Below, in pieces: positions 52-23,357 of a DNA stretch of 32,000 bases. Origin of the DNA: Candidatus Woesearchaeota archaeon (lineage in GTDB: Archaea > Nanobdellota > Nanobdellia > UBA10117); assembly GCA_964619325.1 (NCBI GenBank), contig CAZUEL010000002.1:8276-40275 (forward strand), in the 5' to 3' direction. How positions within the stretch are numbered: position 1 is the first letter of the stretch; the number at the start of each line of letters is the position of its first letter. Both the position numbers and the translations under genes were made by a program. The notes below the pieces were generated by a model. The model did not search any database. It worked only from the letters and a program-made list of their open reading frames with translations, and was not told the origin of the DNA.

Positions 52-777
52 ATGGCCTCGAAACTCGCTTCGGTACGAAAAGCCTGTAATATAAATGATG
101 CTGCGTTCCGGGAAACTGTAAAACATTTTTCCGCCCAAGCCGAGCAGAGCTCGGCTGGGCCCAGCGGAACAAAAAGTTCCGCTTGGGAGTTCAAAACAGA
201 AAAAGATGTTGCTAAATTCCTGAACAATGAAATTAGAAAACGCGGGGCGAGGCTGGCCTTCAGAATAATTGTGGCAAATGGCCCGCACGCGTTTGAGTTA
301 CACCACAAGCCCTGCAAAAAAAGATTAAAACGCGGTTTCACTGTGATTGATTTTGGCGCAAAGGTAGGAAAGTATTGCTCGGACATGACTCGCACCGTTT
401 TCGTTGGCGAGCCGACAAAGCGGGAGCTGGAACTTTACAATTTAGTGAGAAACGCGCAGGTAAAGTGCGTCAAACTTTCAAAGCCTGGTGTTTTATGTTC
501 TTACATTGACCACAAAGCGTCCGTATTTCTGGGAAAGTACGCCCCAAACTTTATTCACGCGGTTGGCCACGGCATCGATAAACGAGTGCATGCAAGTCCA
601 AAAATCTCGCCAAGATCGCCGGACAAATTGCGAAACAGCGACGTAATTGCAATCGAGCCGGGCATTTATTTCAAAAAGCGGCTCGGAATCAGGATTGAAG
701 ACACGGTTTTAGTTAGGAAGAAACCGCTGGCACTAACTAAGTTTACAACTAAGTTAGTAAAAGTTCAAGCGAAGTAG
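52..777 (+). CDS. M24-family metallopeptidase (Xaa-Pro aminopeptidase/prolidase-like, pita-bread catalytic domain only)
   Basis: 241 aa. Metal-ligand pattern is present: IDFGAKVGKYCSDMTRT (D..D), GHGID (H), IEPGIYF (E), IRIEDTV (E). The promoter at the expected spacing supports ATG 52. Carries an 18-codon in-frame insertion at 134-187. Confidence 0.8.
   Translation: MASKLASVRKACNINDAAFRETVKHFSAQAEQSSAGPSGTKSSAWEFKTEKDVAKFLNNEIRKRGARLAFRIIVANGPHAFELHHKPCKKRLKRGFTVIDFGAKVGKYCSDMTRTVFVGEPTKRELELYNLVRNAQVKCVKLSKPGVLCSYIDHKASVFLGKYAPNFIHAVGHGIDKRVHASPKISPRSPDKLRNSDVIAIEPGIYFKKRLGIRIEDTVLVRKKPLALTKFTTKLVKVQAK
134..187 (+). repeat. 54-nt structured palindromic element, copy 1, in frame in the M24 gene
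   Basis: CCCAAG|CCGAGC-aga-GCTCGG|CTGGGCCCAG|CGGAAC-aaaaa-GTTCCG|CTTGGG. Same architecture and length as 2783-2836 on the other strand. Confidence 0.75.
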
Positions 778-3344
778 TTCTGCAGAGCCGCTTTATTCTT
801 TTCGATCCAAAATGTATTTCTCTTGATTGTTTCCAGCGAATTATTCACAACCATTTTGTATTCTATCTTGTGAGTTTTGAAAAACTTTTTGGCCTCTGCG
901 AGTTTTTCTCTGCCAGAATACGGCGTTGTAACATCTTCTAGTACGTCTACAAATAATTTTTCCGCAGACTTTAATTTTTCTATCTTTTTCCAATTACTTG
1001 CTGCCCAGTCCAGGAGGAATGGCCTGCAGAGTGGGTTTCCGCTGACTGAAGAAATAACCTGAGCTGTATCCTGCATACGAACATCTTTTGAAAATCCAAA
1101 TTCCAAAGTCTTTTTCAGTAAATCTGAATTTTTGAAACCCCCAAGCGAGCCGAGCAAAACCTTTTGCTCCTCGGGAACTTTTGTTTGTTTGTAAAATTGC
1201 ACAATTTGCGCGTATGTGTTTTCGCCTCCAGTCCTGGAGCCAACATACAAAATTGCGGAGCGCAAATCTGGGTGAATTTCTCTTGTCTTCAGATATTTTT
1301 CAAATAACTCTTTTCCGATTTTCAAAGCGCCGGAGTCTTCTGTAAACACCAAAAACTTTATTGCCAAGCTTCTTAGCAATCTATCTTCCTCTGGCTCATT
1401 TTCGCGAGGTTGCCAGCCGAGCCTTGCCAGCACTTTCCTAAAAGCTGGCCTGCAGATTTCCCTGAACTTCGGCCAAATTTCATTCCAAAAAGATTCCTGC
1501 GAGAAGAAATAATAAATCTGCCATAGATTCCCAAAAATATCTGCAAGCACGAGGAAGCTGTCCTCATTTCGGTACGCGCGCAGGAAGTCAAGATATTTAT
1601 CGATTGCCAGCTCGCCATGCTTCGTCAGCCTGAACAAATCGTTCTGTACGCCCCACCGGTCAGCTGCGGACAGTGTTTTGTTTCCCACCAATTGTCTTAG
1701 TTTCGCGAGATTTGCGTCCGAATATTTTACGCGGTAAAAGCCGGCCTGCCCGTAATTTAATTTGAACCACTCTGGCGCGGCATTTAATTTTATTACTGCA
1801 TTTTGTTTATCAAAAGTTGTTTTCACCTGCTCGGCGTTCGTTTTAATTACCAGTGGAATCGGCCAGACTGTCTTGTCTTTTAGCTGAAACGCAAATCGTT
1901 TTTGTTTTAACTCCAGATTATTTCCGTTCAGTTCTGCCTCCACCAACGGGAAGCCGGCCTGCCTAATCCACGCGTGCATAATTTTTTCCACGCTCTGCTT
2001 TGATGCAGAGGCGAGGCAGTCCCAAAAAGCTTCAGACGTTGCATTTTTGTACGCGTGGCGGTTTAGATACTTACTAACACCTCTGCGAAAATTTTCCTCC
2101 CCTAAATATGTGTCGAGCATTCTCAAGATGCTACCGCCCTTGTTGTAACTTATCGCATCAAAAACTTCTGTTATGTCGGTCGGCGTTTTAATTTCTACTT
2201 CGATCGGGTGCGTTGATTTGAGCGAATCCTCGTTCAGCGCGATCTCGGTCTCCTCGGAAATAAAGTCCTCCCAGATTTTCCACTGTGGGAAAATTTCGCC
2301 TGCCGCTTTGTAGGCCATATATGTTGCGAAGCTCTCGTTCAGCCATAAATCATTCCACCACTCCATCGTCACCAGATTTCCAGACCACTGGTGCCAGAGT
2401 TCGTGCGCGATCACTTCGGCGACGCGCTTCTTGATTGCGGTCGATGTAATCTTCGGGTCGAACAACAATAAAATTTCGCGGAACGTGATTATGCCCCAGT
2501 TCTCCATCGCCCCAGACTGAAAGTCCGGCAGCGCCACCAGATCCAGCTTGGGCAGCGGATATTTTACGCCGGAATAATCTTCGAAATATTTCAGGAACTT
2601 TTTTGTCAAGTCGAGGGCAAACTTTCCTTGCCTGCTTTTTCCTGGAACTGTTGCAACCCGAATTTCCACATCCTTGTATTTATCCTTCAGGAATTCAAAC
2701 TCGCCGACGCACAGGCACAAAAGATATGTAGACATCTTCGGCGAAGTCTGGAACGAAATAATTTTTTGTTTGCCGTCCTTTTCCCAAGAAAAAGCTTTGC
2801 TTTTTCTGGGCCCAGCCGAACTTGGTTCGGCTTGGGTTTCTTTTTTTATCGGCATGTTAGAAATCGCCTTCAGCGTTGAATCAATCCTGACTGTCAGATC
2901 GAAGGTTGCCTTGTAGGCCGGCTCGTCAAAGCACGGGAAGCACTTGCGCGCGTAGTGGGATTCGAACTGCGTGGCTGCGAGATATTTTTCTTTACCTTTG
3001 CTGCCTTTGTACTTACTTCTGTAAATACCGAGCAACGAATCATTAAGCGCGCCTGAGAATTCTATTATGAGTTTTCTACGGCCGCTGATTTTTTTATTAA
3101 ATTTCAGAATTAGCTGTTCATTTTTCGGGTTTAGTTTGATTTGTGGGGTTAGATTTTGTTTGTTTAGTATTAGCTGTGCACTTTTGATTTTCAGCTCTGC
3201 CGCATTTAACACAATCTCGTTTGTTGGCTTTGGAATTTCCAGATCGATTACCACGTTGCCGGCAAACCTGAACTTTTTTAAGTCCAAGTCAATAAATAAG
3301 TCGTAGTGCTTTGGCTTTGCGATTGCTGGCAAGCGGAAGTCCAT
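765..3344 (-). CDS. M1-family zinc aminopeptidase (tricorn-interacting-factor/aminopeptidase N-like)
   Basis: GAMENWG exopeptidase motif and HELWHQWSGNLVTMEWWNDLWLNESFA (HEXXH-x18-E). Start moved from 3413 to ATG 3344 (MDFRLP...) because tttaaa at 3366-3371 lies exactly 22 nt upstream. 859 aa. Confidence 0.9.
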   Translation of the reverse strand: MDFRLPAIAKPKHYDLFIDLDLKKFRFAGNVVIDLEIPKPTNEIVLNAAELKIKSAQLILNKQNLTPQIKLNPKNEQLILKFNKKISGRRKLIIEFSGALNDSLLGIYRSKYKGSKGKEKYLAATQFESHYARKCFPCFDEPAYKATFDLTVRIDSTLKAISNMPIKKETQAEPSSAGPRKSKAFSWEKDGKQKIISFQTSPKMSTYLLCLCVGEFEFLKDKYKDVEIRVATVPGKSRQGKFALDLTKKFLKYFEDYSGVKYPLPKLDLVALPDFQSGAMENWGIITFREILLLFDPKITSTAIKKRVAEVIAHELWHQWSGNLVTMEWWNDLWLNESFATYMAYKAAGEIFPQWKIWEDFISEETEIALNEDSLKSTHPIEVEIKTPTDITEVFDAISYNKGGSILRMLDTYLGEENFRRGVSKYLNRHAYKNATSEAFWDCLASASKQSVEKIMHAWIRQAGFPLVEAELNGNNLELKQKRFAFQLKDKTVWPIPLVIKTNAEQVKTTFDKQNAVIKLNAAPEWFKLNYGQAGFYRVKYSDANLAKLRQLVGNKTLSAADRWGVQNDLFRLTKHGELAIDKYLDFLRAYRNEDSFLVLADIFGNLWQIYYFFSQESFWNEIWPKFREICRPAFRKVLARLGWQPRENEPEEDRLLRSLAIKFLVFTEDSGALKIGKELFEKYLKTREIHPDLRSAILYVGSRTGGENTYAQIVQFYKQTKVPEEQKVLLGSLGGFKNSDLLKKTLEFGFSKDVRMQDTAQVISSVSGNPLCRPFLLDWAASNWKKIEKLKSAEKLFVDVLEDVTTPYSGREKLAEAKKFFKTHKIEYKMVVNNSLETIKRNTFWIEKNKAALQNYFA
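2783..2836 (-). repeat. 54-nt structured palindromic element, copy 2, in frame in the M1 gene
   Basis: Minus strand reads CCCAAG|CCGAAC-caa-GTTCGG|CTGGGCCCAG|AAAAAGC-aaa-GCTTTTT|CTTGGG. Closing helix and central palindrome are identical to copy 1; the stems covary. Confidence 0.75.
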
Positions 3345-3363
3345 GCAAATTACTGCTTTGTTT

Positions 3364-3373
3364 AGTTTAAAAC
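3364..3373 (-). promoter_or_regulatory. TATA box (gttttaaact) for the M1 aminopeptidase gene
   Basis: Last A of tttaaa is 22 nt upstream of ATG 3344. Confidence 0.55.
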
Positions 3374-3375
3374 AT

Positions 3376-3528
3376 TTACGAGCTAAACGCGGCGAGAATG
3401 CTCGAGCCGGCAATCACCAACGCAAGGCCAAGAACTTTCATTAGCGTTACTGACTCGCCCAAAAAGAATCCAATTATCGAAGCGATTGCAGCAATGACTG
3501 CAAAAATTATTCCGGGCGGGATTATCAT
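3376..3528 (-). CDS. possible 50-aa two-helix membrane peptide
   Basis: My own translation: MIIPPGIIFAVIAAIASIIGFFLGESVTLMKVLGLALVIAGSSILAAFSS. Below the ORF-track cutoff, strongly hydrophobic, no family recognised. Confidence 0.3.
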   Translation of the reverse strand: MIIPPGIIFAVIAAIASIIGFFLGESVTLMKVLGLALVIAGSSILAAFSS

Positions 3529-4724: not shown

Positions 4725-7352
4725 ATGGGTGAGTTGGAGCAAAGGCGGTCTGAACTTTTCAGCAGGATAAGCGCCACGCTAAGCGCTAAGCCAGGCGTAG
4801 CCGGTAAGCCCAGCCTTTTTTCCGGCAGGTTTGCGGAGTTGCCCTACTGGCTGCTGTTAATCCCAATCGTGGTTCTCGCGGCCTGGGTGCGGACAAGAAA
4901 CCTTGGCCTGCTAGTCGGCAAGTACTTGATAGAGCTGGACTCCTATTTGTGGTATCGATATGCAAAAATAATCTTTGACACGGGTGCACTACCCGCAATT
5001 GACACTGCTAGGTATGTTCCAGTCGGCGTCGACACATCTCAGTATGCTTTTTTTTCATACACACTGGCGTACTTCTATAAATTTATCCATATGTTTTTTC
5101 CAAGCTTACAACAGATAACTTGGCATGTCTATTACCCCGTTGTTGTAACCGTACTGAGTTTGCCCTTCTTCTTCTTGTTTGTCAGAAAAATTACAAACGT
5201 GCGAGTTGCGGTTGTTGCAACGGCTTTCCTCACAGTGATCCCTGCTTACATTCAGAGGACTTCTGCTGGCTTTGCAGACCACGAAGCGATGGCGATGTTG
5301 TGGATGTTTATTGCACTGATGTTTTTTGCATACATGTGGACTGAAAAGGATTGGAAAAAGTCCATCTCATTCGGTGCGCTTGGTGGTTTATTCGCCGGAT
5401 TCATGGCTGGCACGTGGGGCGGATTTGCCTATCTAGCAGCAACACTCGGTATATTTTTAGCCACGATGCTTCTATTCTCAAAGATTTCTGCGCCACAGTA
5501 TAAAGGCTATATCACGTTTTATATTATTCTAGCCGTAACTTATGCAATAACAAAATACACACCAATCATTTCATTCCTGAAATCACAGGATGGCCTGTAT
5601 ATGCTATTCCCAATAATTGTTGTTGGCGCGTACTGGCTGACAAAACTACCCAAATTAGACTCCTTCCTGCAAAAAATTGATGCAGTCCTACCACGGCAGG
5701 CCCTCGTAACGGCCTTGCTATTTGCAATTGGCATTGTGATTGGGCAGTTGTTAGGTATAATAGATTTACACTCAATCTACCAGTCCTTGACAAGAGCTAA
5801 CCCAAACCGATGGACAACAACAGTTGCGGAAAATGCATCGCCGTTCTTCTTCGGTGGTGGCGGGTGGTGGGACAGCTTCGGCTGGGCACTTCTATTTGCC
5901 CTGGCTGGCGGCGTTCTGCTATCTATTTACATCTTCAAGAACAGGGAATTCGGTGTCTTTGACCTCAAAAGGCAGATGTATGCGTATATTGCCGGAGCAA
6001 TTTATGTTCTATTCTTCTCTGGCTTTATATTTGGAAGATATAATTCTGGTGGAAGATTCCAAACAATCATTAACTTTTTCTCGAAATACTACATAAGCTG
6101 GCTGTTAATGTCACTAGCTGCATTTGTGCTTCTCTACCTATGCATGTATTACAAAGACAGGGTTGCTTTTGTAAACACCTTCACAGAGGACAAGTGGGTA
6201 ATGGTGTTATTATTTGTGTTCTTCAGTTTTTCGCTAGTGGGCTCACGAATATTAATCCGCCTCATGTTCGGTCTCTCTCCAGCAGTGGCGCTGGTAGCTG
6301 CATGGTTCATGTTGCGCGCGATAGAAAAAACATCCAGCCACAACAAAACAAAAATCATTGCAATTATTTTAGTGTTGTTTATGCTACTTTCTTTTTACTC
6401 GCTTGCCAGAACGTCCTACAACATTAATCGCACGATGGGTTCGATGGTGCCCGGCCAGTGGGAAGCTGCAATGAATTTCCTAAATAGTAGCACTCCGGAA
6501 GATTCTGTGGTGACACACTGGTGGGATTATGGTCACATGACTACTGCCGTTGGGGCGCGACGCGCCGTGACTGACGGTGGAAACCTGATGAGCTGGAATC
6601 ACGCGTCCGGCAGGTACTTCCTTACTGGAAAAGATAGCCAGTCTACGCTGGAATACTTATATTCACACCAAGTTAATTATACTCTTATATCGAACCAGGA
6701 AATTTCGAAGTATTATGCATTTTCGCTCATTGGCTCGGACGACAGCCTAGATCGGCTCAGCACAATTGGCATGTTTGGCCTGCAAGACAAGCGCGAGGCA
6801 CGGGACGGCGATCTGGTGTTATATGGTGGACAGTGGACTTTTGACAGCGATATCACCACTGGTGATGTAGTGTTACCGCGCGGCGGGGCGCAAATACAAG
6901 GTTTCTCCCTTCTCGTAAAGAACAACGGCGTGGCAGAGGTTAAAGCATACATTTCTAACAATGGTAATCGGCTTATTTTCGATGTCGGTTGCCTGTACAT
7001 ACACACCTACCGAGCTGGATCAAACGCATATATTTATGGCAACAGGAGATCTTTCCCGCAGACAGAAAATACGCTGCCTGGTTGTCTGGTGATTGTTCCA
7101 TTCATCGATAATTCCGCAGTCAACGATCAAGGTGCAGCATTCTGGCTCTCAGGCAAAGTCTGGGCTACAAATTTTGCAAGGCTGTACATGTACGGCGAGG
7201 ATGATAAAAACTTCCAGCAGGTTTACTCAGACGCACTACCACTGGGCTTTTACAACGGCCAGCCAATCGGTCCGATAAAAATCTGGAAAGTCCAATACCC
7301 TGAAGGTGTTAAGACCGATCCGAAATACCTGGAGCCAAGCCCGTACGGTTAG
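4725..7352 (+). CDS. aglB: archaeal oligosaccharyltransferase AglB (STT3 family)
   Basis: 875 aa. Polytopic N-terminal half, then the catalytic WWDYGH motif (THWWDYGHMTT) and a soluble C-terminal domain. Confidence 0.9.
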   Translation: MGELEQRRSELFSRISATLSAKPGVAGKPSLFSGRFAELPYWLLLIPIVVLAAWVRTRNLGLLVGKYLIELDSYLWYRYAKIIFDTGALPAIDTARYVPVGVDTSQYAFFSYTLAYFYKFIHMFFPSLQQITWHVYYPVVVTVLSLPFFFLFVRKITNVRVAVVATAFLTVIPAYIQRTSAGFADHEAMAMLWMFIALMFFAYMWTEKDWKKSISFGALGGLFAGFMAGTWGGFAYLAATLGIFLATMLLFSKISAPQYKGYITFYIILAVTYAITKYTPIISFLKSQDGLYMLFPIIVVGAYWLTKLPKLDSFLQKIDAVLPRQALVTALLFAIGIVIGQLLGIIDLHSIYQSLTRANPNRWTTTVAENASPFFFGGGGWWDSFGWALLFALAGGVLLSIYIFKNREFGVFDLKRQMYAYIAGAIYVLFFSGFIFGRYNSGGRFQTIINFFSKYYISWLLMSLAAFVLLYLCMYYKDRVAFVNTFTEDKWVMVLLFVFFSFSLVGSRILIRLMFGLSPAVALVAAWFMLRAIEKTSSHNKTKIIAIILVLFMLLSFYSLARTSYNINRTMGSMVPGQWEAAMNFLNSSTPEDSVVTHWWDYGHMTTAVGARRAVTDGGNLMSWNHASGRYFLTGKDSQSTLEYLYSHQVNYTLISNQEISKYYAFSLIGSDDSLDRLSTIGMFGLQDKREARDGDLVLYGGQWTFDSDITTGDVVLPRGGAQIQGFSLLVKNNGVAEVKAYISNNGNRLIFDVGCLYIHTYRAGSNAYIYGNRRSFPQTENTLPGCLVIVPFIDNSAVNDQGAAFWLSGKVWATNFARLYMYGEDDKNFQQVYSDALPLGFYNGQPIGPIKIWKVQYPEGVKTDPKYLEPSPYG

Positions 7353-14940: not shown

Positions 14941-15269
14941 GAGCGGGGTAAGTGAGTTGCACACTTCTCTTCCGCTCTCGGACCCGCAGGGGGCTCTGCC
15001 CCCTTCAGGTGGACGCTCACCCTGACAAACAAAACCAAAGGTTTTGTTATACAGCAAAACTTCGTTTTGCTTGTACCCCCGGCGCCATCTTCGATGGCGC
15101 GAAGGAACCACGAGGCGTCCCAGCACATATCCCGAACCTGCAAAGTTGCATCAAACTTTGTTTGATGCGACGACTTCTTTCTTTGGATGCCCGGGAGCCT
15201 TTCTTTCCGTCAGAAGAAAGAAAGGCTGCCGCTGCAGGCGGACGCATAGCTGATCTGCCAACCCCGCTT
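14941..15269 (-). ncRNA. unassigned structured RNA (~330 nt): either a stable ncRNA or a structured 5' leader
   Basis: Non-coding gap, about 55% GC by hand count. Terminal helix pairs 15261-15268 with 14942-14949. Six near-perfect hairpins. The consensus promoter predicts a TSS at 15269. Confidence 0.55.
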
Positions 15270-15290
15270 AATTTAGCGACTGGCTCTAAC

Positions 15291-19957: not shown

Positions 19958-20851
19958 ATGTACTCCAAATCTGAACTCGACAAACTGATGAAGGCAGGCC
20001 AGATAGCAGCGAAAGCCCGCGAATACGGAAAAACCCTGGTGAAAGAGGGCGCTTCCGTTCTGGAGATCGCAGATAAAATAGAGGCAAAGATGATTGAGCT
20101 GGGTGGCCAGCCTGCGTTCCCGACAGATGTTTCGATTAATGAGATGGCTGCACACCACTGCCCCGCGTTCGGCGAAAAAACAATTCTGAAAAAAGGTGAC
20201 CTGGTAAAACTAGATTTAGGCGCACACATTGATGGATACATGTCCGACACCGCGGTCACGATCTCGGTTGGAAATGTAAAGGAGGATTTACTGCTGATAA
20301 AAGCTGTCGAAGATGCACTTGCTGCTGCAATTAAATTAGCAACACCGGGCCGCGAAGTTTGGGAAATCGGCAAGGCCATCCAGGACACAATCACAAAGGC
20401 CGGCTTCGCTCCAATCCGGAACTTATCGGGCCACTTGATACAAAGGCATGACCTGCACTCGGACATCACAATTCCAAACACAAACAACCGGAACAAAACA
20501 AAACTGGAGGACGGCATGGTAATCGCAATCGAGCCATTCGCAACACCCGGCGACGGCTTGGTCAATGATGTCCGCGAGTTCCAAGTTTTCCGCGTTAAGA
20601 ACGTAAAAAATATGCGCACCAACCGCGACGTTTTAGAATTTGTTTTAGATACTTACGAAACAATGCCGTTCTGCGCACGCTGGCTCATCAAAAAGTTTGG
20701 CGTGCTGAAAACCAATCTCGCTCTGAAGGAAATGGTTGCGAAAGGGATTCTGCACGAGTACACTGGCCTCAAAGAAATTTCAGAAAAAAACGCAGCGCAG
20801 GCCGAACATACTATCATCATCGGCCAGACACCGGTTGTTACAACAGCTTAG
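19958..20851 (+). CDS. map: methionine aminopeptidase, type 2 (archaeal)
   Basis: 297 aa. FPTDVSINEMAAHH, DLGAHIDGYMSDTA, GHLIQRHDLH, IEPFAT and AQAEHTIII, plus the type-2 helical insert. Confidence 0.95.
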   Translation: MYSKSELDKLMKAGQIAAKAREYGKTLVKEGASVLEIADKIEAKMIELGGQPAFPTDVSINEMAAHHCPAFGEKTILKKGDLVKLDLGAHIDGYMSDTAVTISVGNVKEDLLLIKAVEDALAAAIKLATPGREVWEIGKAIQDTITKAGFAPIRNLSGHLIQRHDLHSDITIPNTNNRNKTKLEDGMVIAIEPFATPGDGLVNDVREFQVFRVKNVKNMRTNRDVLEFVLDTYETMPFCARWLIKKFGVLKTNLALKEMVAKGILHEYTGLKEISEKNAAQAEHTIIIGQTPVVTTA

Positions 20852-21056: not shown

Positions 21057-23327
21057 TTAACTGAGATATTCTGGTGCAGACGCTGTATTTTTCTTTACCG
21101 ATGCGAGCGCAGCGACGTATTTTTCGGTCTCCGCTTTTGATAGAGAGGGCTTGCGGTCTTCCAGCGCCTTTTCAAAATTTTTCATTGTTACTTGTTTCGC
21201 TTTGATGTTCTCTCTCAGTGCGAGCATTGCGGCTTCCCTGCAGATCGCTTCGATGTCCGCGCCAGAGTAGCCCGCCGTCTTGAGCGCAATTTCATCTAGG
21301 TCGATGTCCTTTGCCAGCGGCATTTTTGCGGTGTGGATTTTCAAAATCTCTAAACGAGTTTTCTGCTCTGGCGGCGTAGTCAATATGTGTCTGTCAAATC
21401 GTCCTGGGCGCAGGATTGCTGAATCCAGAAGCTCTGGCCTGTTGGTTGCTGCAATCACGACAACATCAGTTAGGTCTTCGAGGCCGTCCATCTCTGTCAA
21501 GAGCTGATTGACAACTGTTTCTGTTGCTTTTGAAACTGAACTTGCGGTCCGCTTGCTTGCCATCGAGTCAATTTCGTCAAAGAAAATTATACATGGCGCT
21601 ACCTGGCGTGCCTTTTTGAAAATGTCCCTGACAGCTTTTTCTGATTCGCCGACCCACTTGCTCAACAGTTCAGGACCTTTTATCGAGATAAAGTTTGCTT
21701 CTGACTCTGTCGCGACTGCTTTTGCTAACAAAGTTTTTCCGCAGCCGCTTGGGCCGTACAAGAGAATTCCGCGTGGTGGCCTGATACCCATTCGCTTGAA
21801 AACTTCTGGCTGTTTTAATGGCCACTCGACTGCTTCCTTCAGCTCCTGCTTTGCAAGTTCTAAGCCGCCGACTTCAGTCCACTTTACTTTCGGCTGTTCT
21901 ATCAGAACTTCGCGCATCGCGCTCGGCCTGACTAATTTGAGTGCTTCTTTGAAATCTGATTTGTAAACTATTAATTTTTCTAGTATTTCTTTCGGAATCG
22001 CTTCATCGTCTTTGAAATTAAACTGTGGCAGCACCCTTCGTAGAACTGACATTGCTGCTTCCTTACACAGGCCTTCTGCATCCGCGCCGACAAAGCCGTG
22101 TGTGACATCGGCAAGCTCTTTCAGATCAACATCATCAGCGAGCGGCATATTTCTTGTATGAATTTTCAAAATCTCTAGCCTGCCTTCCTTGTTCGGCACG
22201 CCAATCTCTATCTCGCGGTCAAATCTGCCGCCGCGCCTGAGCGCTGGGTCCAATGCCTCTGGCCTGTTGGTCGCTGCAATTACTATAACTTTGCCGCGCG
22301 CCTTCAGGCCGTCCATCGAGGCCAACATCTGCGCGACAACTCTGCGCTCGACCTCGCCGTATGATTCCTCTCGCTTTGGCGCGATCGCATCAATCTCGTC
22401 GATGAATAAAATTGCGGGCGCGTTCTTCTCCGCTTCTGCAAATAAATCTCTTAGCTTTTTCTCTGCCTCGCCAACAAACTTGGACATTATCTCCGGGCCG
22501 TTCAGCGAGATGAACGTTGCATTTGACTCGTTTGCGACTGCCTTTGCCAGCAACGTCTTGCCTGTGCCTGGCGGGCCATACAACAGCACTCCCTTGGGCG
22601 GCTGTATCCCTAGTCTTTCAAAAATCTCTGGGTGTTTAAGCGGGAGTTCAATCATCTCGCGGACTTTCTTTACTTCTTCTTGCAGGCCACCAATATCTTC
22701 GTAAGAAACATCCGGGACTTTTTCCTCTTTCAGCTCGACCGCTTCCGGAAGGATTTCGAGTTCTGTATCCTCTGTAATTAAGACTGTTTCTTTCGGGCTT
22801 GTTGACACCACCACAAATTTGAGGTCGGTGAACATACCAGTGGTGATGTCTTCCATCGCGCCGAACAATTCGCTGACGTCACCAAATGGCGAAAAAGTCA
22901 TTCTCTGCCTTCGCCTTGGGCCACCCAACGCTATGATGTCGCCTTTCACAACTGGCCGGCTCATCAGGTAACGCTTGAAAACCTGCGGCGGCATCTGGAT
23001 AAAAATGCCTTTCTGGACTGGCGCGATCGCGACTGACTTTGCTGCCTTTAGCTCGGCTGGCTTCACGTTTACGTACTCGCCGATTGAGGTGCCGGCATTC
23101 CTTCTTGTAATTCCATCGACTCGAACGATCGCTGCGCCGATGTCCGCGGGGTATGCCCTTGCGGCTATTGCTACTGATTTTTTGGCGCCAGATATTTCGA
23201 CAACCGTGCCGTGCTGGATGCCAAGTTCTTTCATAATCTGAGAATCTATTCGGGCTATGCCTCTTTGAACATCATCTTGCATAGCTTCTGCTACCTTCAG
23301 CTTTAGCTCGCGAGGCTTTTCTGCCAT
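21057..23327 (-). CDS. cdc48: CDC48/VCP-like AAA+ ATPase
   Basis: CDC48 N-domain plus two AAA modules (GPPGTGKT and GPSGCGKT Walker A; DEID Walker B in each). Start set to ATG 23327 by TATA spacing. 756 aa. Confidence 0.95.
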
Positions 23328-23347
23328 AGCTTGTAAAAGGAGAGGCA

Positions 23348-23357
23348 CTTTTATATG
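23348..23357 (-). promoter_or_regulatory. TATA box (catataaaag) for cdc48
   Basis: tataaa ends 22-23 nt upstream of ATG 23327. Confidence 0.55.

What the first reader, a model, noticed from the sequence alone, without database searches (positions are those of the whole stretch)
2783..2836. Second copy interrupts a conserved stretch of the M1 aminopeptidase, consistent with an insertion
In this M1 protein, ISNMP and MSTYL are separated by 38 residues (IKKETQAEPSSAGPRKSKAFSWEKDGKQKIISFQTSPK). From memory, M1 enzymes such as ERAP1/APN-type have about 20 residues between the SNMP-like strand and the MSTYL strand. Removing the 18 element-encoded residues leaves 20. The same logic holds for copy 1: the insert sits between the first helix and the FKTEKDV segment, which aligns with the usual kpG.tE.ev turn of M24 enzymes. 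Two unrelated folds acquired the same 54-nt module, in sense orientation and the same phase. This argues for a mobile or copy-pasted element that is tolerated only when it is translatable.
Basis: partly seen in the sequence, partly recalled or inferred. Interest (0 to 1): 0.7.

Follow-up and report, generated by a model that had tools for sequence, protein, structure and literature searches.

The report
Tiny double-hairpin element inserted in genes
The 54 bases are a real in-frame insertion of a tiny palindromic "double-hairpin" DNA element, one of a family I found undescribed in the paper library, that has spread through small-genome (DPANN) archaea, often inside essential protein genes, much as palindromic elements do in Rickettsia.

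Summary
Window 2783-2836 is an exact 54-nt, 18-codon insertion in an M1 aminopeptidase. Twenty-nine of 30 homologues have no insertion here; the 30th carries an unrelated one. The two closest orthologues show a 54-nt gap. AlphaFold places the insert in the only low-confidence loop, between two beta-strands.

The first copy (134-187) is likewise an 18-codon insertion in an M24 peptidase.

Both copies have the architecture CCCAAG-hairpin-CTGGGCCCAG-hairpin-CTTGGG. This scaffold is its own reverse complement.

Exact-pattern scans found about 85 further copies, almost all in DPANN archaeal sequence. The 73 non-redundant copies have near-perfect Watson-Crick hairpins with 57 different stem sequences. 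Matches in GC-rich bacterial contigs lack hairpins.

Copies inside long ORFs are nearly always a multiple of three in length (31/34, against 19/39 elsewhere). They sit in ribonucleotide reductase, ArgRS, aIF2-gamma, Kae1, TruD, ribosomal protein S3 and others.

The M24 copy is present in one relative but exactly absent from that relative's 93%-identical sister. Nested and degenerate copies also exist.

Best reading: a mobile, DNA-level palindromic element, functionally like Rickettsia palindromic elements, that survives in genes only when it can be translated. The mobilising enzyme is unknown.

The parts
2783..2836 (-). Double-hairpin element, copy 2 (54 nt), in frame within the M1 aminopeptidase gene. 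It encodes (T)QAEPSSAGPRKSKAFSW(E). On the + strand the parts are: CCCAAG 2783-2788, hairpin AAAAAGC/TTT/GCTTTTT 2789-2805, central palindrome CTGGGCCCAG 2806-2815, hairpin CCGAAC/TTG/GTTCGG 2816-2830, CTTGGG 2831-2836.
   Evidence: E = 4e-11. The 54-nt gap in orthologues is, and the homologue alignment. The pLDDT < 50 segment at residues 175-189 is.
134..187 (+). Double-hairpin element, copy 1 (54 nt), in frame within the M24 peptidase gene. It encodes (A)QAEQSSAGPSGTKSSAW(E). The parts are: CCCAAG 134-139, hairpin CCGAGC/AGA/GCTCGG 140-154, CTGGGCCCAG 155-164, hairpin CGGAAC/AAAAA/GTTCCG 165-181, CTTGGG 182-187.
   Evidence: E = 3.6e-13. The orthologous copy in L050 (51/54 identical) is.
765..3344 (-). 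Host gene: M1-family aminopeptidase (tricorn-interacting-factor F2/F3-like), 859 aa from the ATG at 3344.
   Evidence: Pfam domains; homologues; structure model with mean pLDDT 90.8.
52..777 (+). Host gene: single-domain M24 (Xaa-Pro peptidase-like) protein, 241 aa. It would be 223 aa without the element, as in its orthologues.

Best explanation
Window 2783-2836 is one copy of a small (48-57 nt) non-coding palindromic DNA element made of two tandem hairpins on a fixed 22-nt scaffold (CCCAAG / CTGGGCCCAG / CTTGGG). The element proliferates in the genomes of DPANN archaea.

**What is shown.**
- The element inserts with exact boundaries and no evident target duplication, and it can be exactly absent in a near-identical relative.
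- It lands in genes and in spacers. Within genes, the copies that persist are a multiple of three in length, free of stop codons, and located in surface loops, linkers or termini. There they are simply read through and add 16-19 hydrophilic residues.
- In this M1 enzyme the result is an 18-residue loop, modelled with low confidence, between two beta-strands of the N-terminal domain.

**What is inferred.**
- The constraint acts on DNA, as single-strand hairpins or a cruciform, and not on RNA. The stems are almost purely Watson-Crick and the whole design is strand-symmetric.
- Mobilisation is in trans by a structure-specific enzyme. The leading guess is a single-strand 'peel-and-paste' HUH/Y1 transposase of the IS200/IS605 or RAYT type, because those recognise bulged hairpins, leave no target duplication and excise precisely. 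No such enzyme was found. I give this sub-hypothesis a probability of about 0.2.
For: **Insertion boundaries and structure context.**
- Both insertions have exact boundaries.
- The structure model has a single pLDDT < 50 segment, residues 175-189, flanked by strands 166-172 and 193-198.

**Family.**
- The scaffold pattern gives 48 genome loci and 52 metagenome loci. About 85 of these matches are real elements, and the named genome records among them are DPANN MAGs or MAGs labelled Methanosarcinales.
- After removing duplicates, 73 elements remain. All have two hairpins.
- The roughly 16 hits in high-GC contigs, including the bacterial MAGs, have none.

**Structure.**
- 141 of 146 hairpins have perfect stems of at least 4 bp, with 57 distinct stem sequences.
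- 99.3% of cells are paired, against 78% in shuffles and 31-53% when partners are slid. 488 cells show double-sided changes against 117 in shuffles (0/500 shuffles reach this).
- Of 715 stem pairs, 708 are Watson-Crick, 1 is G-T and 6 are other.

**Filter for translatability.**
- 31/34 copies in long ORFs are a multiple of three, against 19/39 elsewhere.
- Pfam confirms that the hosts are real housekeeping genes: RNR, ArgRS, aIF2-gamma, TruD, Kae1, S3, carbamoyltransferase and others.

**Mobility.**
- The M24 copy is present in the window and in L050 but absent from L104, which is 93.4% identical to L050. It is also absent from L105 and L106.
- L050's M1 has a different, degenerate copy at another site.
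- L035 has two near-identical copies, one carrying a nested variant element.
- Near-identical units of about 113 nt (93-97% identity) sit in unrelated genes.
- In one Woesearchaeota repeat, the element sits at variable positions within an A/T run.
Against: - No transposase or other mobilising gene was found in the window or in the 767 kb of fetched loci.
- No longer 'autonomous' element bounded by half-scaffolds was seen.
- The pattern found nothing in viral contigs.
- The orthologous M24 copies are far more conserved than their gene. They match at 51/54 nt against a median of 43/54 for 54-nt windows of the gene. Synonymous codons are identical in 15/16 cases inside the element against 106/185 outside (p = 0.003). 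All three differences lie in loops. A decaying selfish insert should not behave this way. This points to a host-level constraint, to recurrent insertion at the same site, or to arm-to-arm correction.
- Translation of the insert is inferred, not observed.
- The flanks show only a weak A/T-run preference and no clear target motif.
Confidence: 0.72

Rival explanations
1. The double hairpin is a host-selected functional nucleic-acid motif, for example a binding or processing site for a conserved DPANN protein on DNA, or on transcripts of either strand. In this reading it is not mainly a selfish element, and it is kept in place by selection. This does not fully exclude the best explanation.
For: - The scaffold is identical across lineages with 27-49% GC, labelled Woesearchaeota, Pacearchaeota and Nanoarchaeota.
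- The orthologous M24 copies are conserved at synonymous sites, with changes only in loops.
- The stems are strictly maintained.
Against: - The element is dispensable. It is exactly absent from a 93%-identical relative and from three other orthologues, and absent from all M1 homologues.
- Copies are scattered over unrelated genes, at different sites, and in spacers, with no consistent position relative to genes.
- Degenerate copies exist.
Confidence: 0.15
2. The hairpins are generated or refreshed locally by replication template-switching or palindrome-mediated repair, not by transposition. This would explain perfect Watson-Crick arms without selection.
For: Stems are perfect with very diverse sequences, and loops vary freely. 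Template switching is a documented route to perfect hairpins (bioRxiv 10.1101/2023.04.19.537475, listed; I did not read it).
Against: - This cannot create the same 22-nt scaffold independently at about 85 sites in different phyla.
- It does not explain near-identical copies in unrelated genes.
Confidence: 0.06
3. The element is removed or skipped at the RNA or translation level. Candidates are an archaeal bulge-helix-bulge intron cut by the tRNA splicing endonuclease, or ribosomal bypassing as reported for mitochondrial 'byp' elements.
For: The element forms a very stable local structure (-31 to -39 kcal/mol, z about -5). Small hairpin elements in mitochondrial genes are reported to be bypassed (from my own knowledge: Lang et al. 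2014).
Against: - No BHB motif can be drawn. The minimum-free-energy fold has two single-base bulges, not two 3-nt bulges 4 bp apart.
- Rfam finds nothing.
- Genic copies are multiples of three and stop-free, a constraint that a spliced or bypassed element would not need.
- Copies whose length is not a multiple of three lie between genes or at gene ends. Removing them exactly does not join the flanking frames.
Confidence: 0.03
4. This is an ordinary lineage-specific loop, or an assembly artefact, and no element is involved.
For: The loop tolerates other insertions: P0056 has an unrelated 27-aa insert at the same place.
Against: - The same structured 54-mer occurs in two unrelated genes.
- An independent assembly (L050) carries the M24 copy.
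- About 85 family members come from many studies.
Confidence: 0.01

Closest known systems
Rickettsia palindromic elements (RPEs; Ogata et al. 2000, as summarised in PMC10969869)
   Same: Both are short palindromic repeats in reduced genomes of host-dependent prokaryotes. Both insert in frame into many unrelated housekeeping genes. Both add a peptide at positions compatible with the protein fold, with a lineage-typical reading frame.
   Different: - RPEs are about 100-150 bp, bacterial, and defined by sequence families. I did not compare sequences against RPE families.
- The present element is 48-57 nt and archaeal.
- It is defined by a strand-symmetric 22-nt scaffold plus two hypervariable perfect hairpins, and in one subfamily it uses all three frames.
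REP/REPIN elements mobilised by RAYTs, and IS200/IS605-derived hairpin MITEs (PATEs)
   Same: Both use hairpin units arranged as an inverted doublet, with recognition apparently by structure and a short conserved foot. Each hairpin here has a single-base bulge. There is no evident target duplication, and presence/absence is exact, as expected for single-strand HUH transposition.
   Different: - REPs are extragenic and carry GTAG/CGTC heads (PMC3733652, abstract). The present element has neither property.
- No Y1/HUH gene was found.
- No conserved 4-5-nt target was seen.
Classical prokaryotic MITEs
   Same: Both are small, multicopy and non-coding with terminal inverted repeats (CCCAAG/CTTGGG here). 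The 2024 census reports a Woesearchaeal genome among the MITE-richest archaea (PMC11602168).
   Different: - No target-site duplication is seen, and no parent IS is known.
- The element lies at the very bottom of the MITE size range.
- About half of the copies are intragenic, whereas about 89% of archaeal MITEs are intergenic.
Mitochondrial double-hairpin elements / GC clusters (Allomyces, yeasts) and 'byp' elements
   Same: Both are two-hairpin mobile modules of a few tens of nucleotides that invade coding regions (from my own knowledge; PMC4478555 was listed but I did not read it).
   Different: Those are organellar and unrelated in sequence. Byps are not in frame and require ribosomal hopping. 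Here the in-frame filter shows ordinary read-through.

Membership tests
Rickettsia palindromic elements (RPE) | Multicopy palindromic repeat inserted in frame in unrelated protein genes | tested here: met
Rickettsia palindromic elements (RPE) | Sequence membership in one of the RPE families; about 100-150 bp; Rickettsiales host | tested here: not met
   The element is 48-57 nt and is found in archaeal (DPANN) MAGs. I did not run a sequence comparison against RPE consensus sequences; size and host already exclude membership. It is an analogue, not a member.
MITE | Terminal inverted repeats | tested here: met
   CCCAAG...CTTGGG ends are invariant in the pattern-selected set. Variants such as CGCAAG...CTTGCG keep the complementarity.
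MITE | Target-site duplication flanking the element | tested here: not met
   The gap in empty orthologous sites equals the element length exactly: 54 nt for M1 and M24. The flanks show only A/T-run enrichment. A 1-3-nt duplication of A's cannot be strictly excluded.
MITE | Related autonomous IS with the same ends in the genome | not testable with these tools
   Only about 8-kb loci could be fetched. No long element bounded by half-scaffolds was seen in them.
REP/REPIN-RAYT | Extragenic location and a conserved GTAG/CGTC head | tested here: not met
   About half of the copies are intragenic. The scaffold has no GTAG/CGTC head.
REP/REPIN-RAYT or IS200/IS605 derivative | Cognate Y1/HUH transposase gene in the same genome | tested here: inconclusive
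Pfam found no transposase in the window. Sampling is far too small to count as absence.
IS200/IS605 derivative | Hairpin ends, no TIR-dependent duplication, precise excision or insertion | tested here: met
   Hairpins with a single-base bulge. Exact 54-nt presence/absence between the 93%-identical L050 and L104.
IS200/IS605 derivative | Insertion 3' of a fixed tetra- or pentanucleotide | tested here: not met
   There is no fixed flank. Only A is enriched (53-56%) at positions -2 and -3.
Archaeal BHB intron | Bulge-helix-bulge motif (two 3-nt bulges separated by 4 bp) at the boundaries | tested here: not met
   Folds show two long hairpins, each with a 1-nt bulge. The multiple-of-three bias argues for translation.
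Described RNA families (Rfam 15) | Match at the gathering threshold | tested here: not met
   No match anywhere in the window.

The most novel reading that the evidence does not exclude
A DPANN-wide class of roughly 50-nt double-hairpin DNA elements, which would be among the smallest mobile elements described. They would insert and excise precisely by a structure-specific, probably single-strand-DNA mechanism. They would also be held under nucleotide-level constraint while sitting inside essential genes. That implies either recurrent site-specific (homing-like) insertion or a host function for the DNA structure itself.
Probability: 0.3. Interest if true: 0.8.

Novelty: new variant of a known kind. 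Interest (0 to 1): 0.62.

Why it matters
**A second case of a rare phenomenon.** This would be a second, independent case, in Archaea, of selfish palindromic DNA colonising protein-coding genes. Rickettsia is so far the textbook example. It occurs again in host-dependent organisms with reduced genomes, which suggests a general link between genome reduction and tolerance of intragenic repeats.

**Practical consequences.**
- These elements inflate and interrupt DPANN protein sequences, including ribosomal protein S3, aIF2-gamma, ArgRS, Kae1 and RNR. This affects alignments, phylogenomics and domain annotation.
- The sites they occupy mark positions that tolerate insertion.

**Mechanistic interest.**
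- The design combines an invariant strand-symmetric 22-nt scaffold, two freely varying perfect Watson-Crick hairpins, and exact gain or loss.
- It is a clean substrate for finding the responsible enzyme, and it could define a very small mobile unit.

Tried and rejected
- **Exact-sequence look-ups.** Look-ups of the window's M24 and M1 proteins to recover the source contig found nothing. Cluster look-up gave no names. The organism is therefore known only as a DPANN-like archaeon whose best named M1 relatives are Aenigmarchaeota, at about 54% identity.
- **Rfam and tRNA scans.** Neither found anything at the element.
- **BHB intron or bypassing.** I rejected these. The fold lacks a BHB motif, genic copies are in frame, and removing out-of-frame copies does not join the flanking ORFs.
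- **Integron attC analogy.** I considered it because attC sites are structure-defined with RYYYAAC/GTTRRRY ends. I dropped it because the architecture is a double hairpin and the copies are intragenic.
- **P0056's insert in the same M1 loop.** It is not a hairpin element.
- **The only mid-ORF copy whose length is not a multiple of three (L023).** It lies in a 412-aa ORF with no Pfam match, so it may not be a gene.
- **Search for an autonomous partner.** I looked for solo half-units and long elements bounded by half-scaffolds and found none. The tblastn search for a Y1 transposase was negative.
- **Viral contigs.** No match.
- **Literature.** Searches found no description of this element.
Full report
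**1. The observation**

The window encodes archaeal genes: AglB/STT3, CDC48, family-B DNA polymerase, topoisomerase, and CysRS and SerRS.

The ORF 765-3413 (-) is an M1 aminopeptidase.

The 54-mer at 2783-2836 has one relative in the window, at 134-187 on the other strand. That copy lies inside an M24 peptidase gene (52-777 +). The two are 75% alike over 55 nt. The exact sequence has no chance expectation.

Both copies begin at codon position 2. They encode (T)QAEPSSAGPRKSKAFSW(E) and (A)QAEQSSAGPSGTKSSAW(E).

**2. Both copies are insertions with exact boundaries**

*M1 gene.*
- Of 30 M1 homologues (45-78% identity), 29 have 20 residues between ISNMP and MSTYL.
- The exception, P0056, has an unrelated insert that is not a hairpin element.
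- DNA of the two closest orthologues (L049 and L050) shows a gap of exactly 54 nt.
- Deleting 2783-2836 gives IKKEKKDGKQKIISF, which is collinear with their IKSEKRVGKNKIVSF.

*M24 gene.*
- Sixteen distant homologues lack the 18 residues, and so do three close orthologues (L104, L105, L106).
- Local alignments to solved prolidases start immediately after the insert.

*Structure model.* An AlphaFold model of the M1 protein has mean pLDDT 90.8. Its only segment below 50 is residues 175-189, inside the insert (residues 170-187). This segment lies between strands 166-172 and 193-198 of the N-terminal domain.

**3. Anatomy**

Each copy reads CCCAAG - hairpin - CTGGGCCCAG - hairpin - CTTGGG.

As a single strand of RNA or DNA, it folds into two adjacent hairpins: CCCA(A)G-stem-loop-stem-CTGGG and CCCAG-stem-loop-stem-C(T)TGGG. 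Each has one bulged base. RNA energies are -31 to -39 kcal/mol, and z-scores (RNA or DNA parameters) run from -4.7 to -7.5.

The 22-nt scaffold is its own reverse complement, so both strands fold alike. The two window copies differ in the stems by compensatory changes.

**4. It is a family**

*Where it is found.*
- Scanning for the scaffold with free inserts gave 48 loci in a one-genome-per-species collection and 52 loci in metagenomes.
- About 85 of these matches are real elements. The named genome records among them are MAGs labelled Woesearchaeota, Pacearchaeota, Nanoarchaeota or 'Nanobdellati', plus a few labelled Methanosarcinales or only 'archaeon'. There are often several copies per MAG.
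- The matches in high-GC contigs, including the bacterial MAGs, have no hairpins and are chance hits.
- No viral contig matched.

*Hairpin structure in the 73 non-redundant elements.*
- 141 of 146 inserts are perfect hairpins with 4-8-bp stems, and most loops are 3-6 nt. There are 57 different stem sequences.
- On a model-based alignment, 99.3% of cells pair, against 78% in shuffles and 31-53% with slid partners. 488 cells carry changes on both sides against 117 in shuffles (0/500 reach this). This alignment was fitted to the structure.
- Counting directly gives 708 Watson-Crick pairs, 1 G-T and 6 other pairs.

The near absence of wobble pairs, together with the strand symmetry, points to a constraint on DNA, or on both strands, and not on one RNA.

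*Model search.* A covariance model (R1) finds only the two copies in the window. In the loci it finds further diverged copies. These include a co-varying scaffold variant, CGCAAG...CTGCGCAG...CTTGCG.

**5. Where the copies sit**

Copy length ranges from 48 to 60 nt.
- 50 of 73 elements are a multiple of three in length (p = 9e-10 against one third).
- Within ORFs of at least 190 aa the figure is 31 of 34; elsewhere it is 19 of 39 (Fisher p = 1e-4).

The three exceptions are weak:
- one lies 5 codons from a stop;
- one lies 19 codons from a possible start;
- one lies in an ORF with no Pfam match.

Pfam shows that the hosts are ordinary housekeeping genes:
- ribonucleotide reductase (in the linker before the TSCPD domain);
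- ArgRS (in the DALR domain);
- aIF2-gamma (N-terminus);
- TruD, and Kae1/TsaD (twice);
- carbamoyltransferase;
- ribosomal protein S3 (C-terminal tail);
- a glycosyltransferase, PfkB, a DnaG-like Toprim protein and an intein-containing protein.

All three phases occur in the 'TCG' subfamily. In the window's lineage, however, 3 of 3 genic copies use the same frame. In an AT-rich lineage, 3 of 3 genic copies encode the same peptide, SREDTSKPKKIIxNFLGPENQEGFLGKPLGxVD.

**6. Evidence for movement**

- **(a) Exact presence/absence between close relatives.**
  - The M24 copy is present in the window and in L050, but exactly absent from L104. L104's gene is 93.4% identical to L050's. The copy is also absent from L105 and L106.
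  - This means either a recent insertion at the same nucleotide in two lineages, or precise loss.
- **(b) A second site in the same gene.** L050's M1 gene lacks the window's insert. It carries a different, partly degenerate 48-nt copy at another loop, encoding TQAEQSSAAPRSEGATEW. This copy is absent from L049 and from the window.
- **(c) A nested copy.** L035 holds two near-identical copies. One is interrupted inside its first hairpin by a CGC-type element.
- **(d) The same unit in unrelated genes.** Units of about 113 nt that contain the double hairpin are 93-97% identical between unrelated genes.
- **(e) Variable position within another repeat.** In groundwater Woesearchaeota the element sits at variable positions within the A/T runs of a second repeat, TGACC-TTTTT-nnn-AAAAA-GGTCAATCAAAAAACG.

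The flanks show A enrichment at positions -2 and -3, but no fixed target and no clear duplication.

**7. An unexplained point**

The orthologous M24 copies of the window and L050 are 51/54 identical. The genes are 77-79% identical, and no other 54-nt window of the gene reaches 51 matches. Same-amino-acid codons are identical in 15/16 cases inside the element against 106/185 outside (p = 0.003). All three differences are in loops.

Three readings are possible:
- the stems and scaffold are constrained at the nucleotide level after insertion;
- the same variant has inserted twice at this site;
- the arms are corrected against each other.

I cannot separate these. This point is the main reason for the 'novel case' score.

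**8. Mechanism**

*Shown:*
- exact in-frame insertions;
- a structured, strand-symmetric family;
- a filter for translatability;
- sporadic distribution among close relatives.

*Inferred:*
- the elements move as DNA;
- genic copies are translated as surface loops;
- a structure-specific enzyme acts in trans.

A single-strand HUH/Y1 transposase is the best available analogy, because it would fit the bulged hairpins, the lack of duplication and the precise excision. No such gene was found in the small amount of sequence I could examine, so this step is a guess.

Splicing and bypassing are unlikely.

**9. Comparison with known systems**

Functionally the closest system is the Rickettsia palindromic elements (PMC10969869). 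The element is not a member of that family, given its size and host.

It shares features with REP/REPIN and IS200/IS605-type hairpin elements and with MITEs, but fails at least one defining feature of each (see the membership table).

A 2024 MITE census noted a MITE-rich Woesearchaeal genome without describing these elements (PMC11602168). My other searches found no description.

**10. Verdict**

The element is best filed as a new variant of a known kind: palindromic mobile DNA inserted in frame. It stands out for three reasons:
- its very small size;
- its scaffold-plus-variable-hairpin design;
- its spread through essential genes of DPANN archaea.

Noticed in passing
window 14941-15272 (+): An intergenic stretch of about 330 nt with very strong predicted structure (MFE -144 kcal/mol, z = -8.55). 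Its ends pair with each other, and it contains several perfect hairpins with 3-nt loops. It has no Rfam match. It is probably an unannotated structured RNA gene (SRP-RNA- or RNase-P-like?), possibly carrying hairpin insertions. Model R1 gives only a weak hit at 15028-15075.
   Followed up: partly
L050 2166-2213: The closest relative's M1 gene lacks the window's insert. It has a different, partly degenerate 48-nt copy of the same element family at another loop, in the same reading frame (TQAEQSSAAPRSEGATEW).
   Followed up: yes
L003, L011, L013, L017, L019-L022, L034-L037, L039, L047 (flanks of the element): In groundwater Woesearchaeota the element is usually embedded in a second conserved repeat, (a)TGACC(C)TTTTT-nnn-AAAAA(G)GGTCAATC(C)AAAAACG. 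This repeat often lies just upstream of start codons or next to tRNA genes. The insertion point within its A/T runs varies. The nature of the outer repeat is unknown.
   Followed up: partly
L030 2280-2394, L058 2428-2540, L092 1092-1204, L064, L079: In AT-rich (27-30% GC) Nano/Pacearchaeota-like contigs, the double hairpin is the core of a repeat of about 113 nt. The repeat is 93-97% identical between unrelated genes (aIF2-gamma, ArgRS and a 219-aa ORF) and encodes the same 33-aa peptide.
   Followed up: partly
L035 3556-3606 and about 6929-7027; also L012 3143-3193, L033 5575-5624, L042 7495-7544: A scaffold variant, CGCAAG...CTGCGCAG...CTTGCG, keeps all the complementarities. One such copy is nested inside hairpin 1 of a standard copy in L035, with a 2-nt (CG) ambiguous junction.
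   Followed up: partly
L039 569-661: One copy has about 42 extra nt, themselves hairpin-forming, inside its first hairpin. This is another apparent nested insertion.
   Followed up: no
L103 (P0056), M1 loop between ISNMP and MSTYL: An unrelated 27-aa low-complexity insert occupies the same loop in another archaeal M1 enzyme. It has no hairpin DNA. This loop appears generally tolerant of insertion.
   Followed up: yes
window 19958-20851 (+) and 21057-23348 (-): There is a second M24-family gene, without any element. The direct repeats with 825-nt spacing reported by the repeat finder lie inside the CDC48 gene, whose Pfam match shows two AAA stretches.
   Followed up: no
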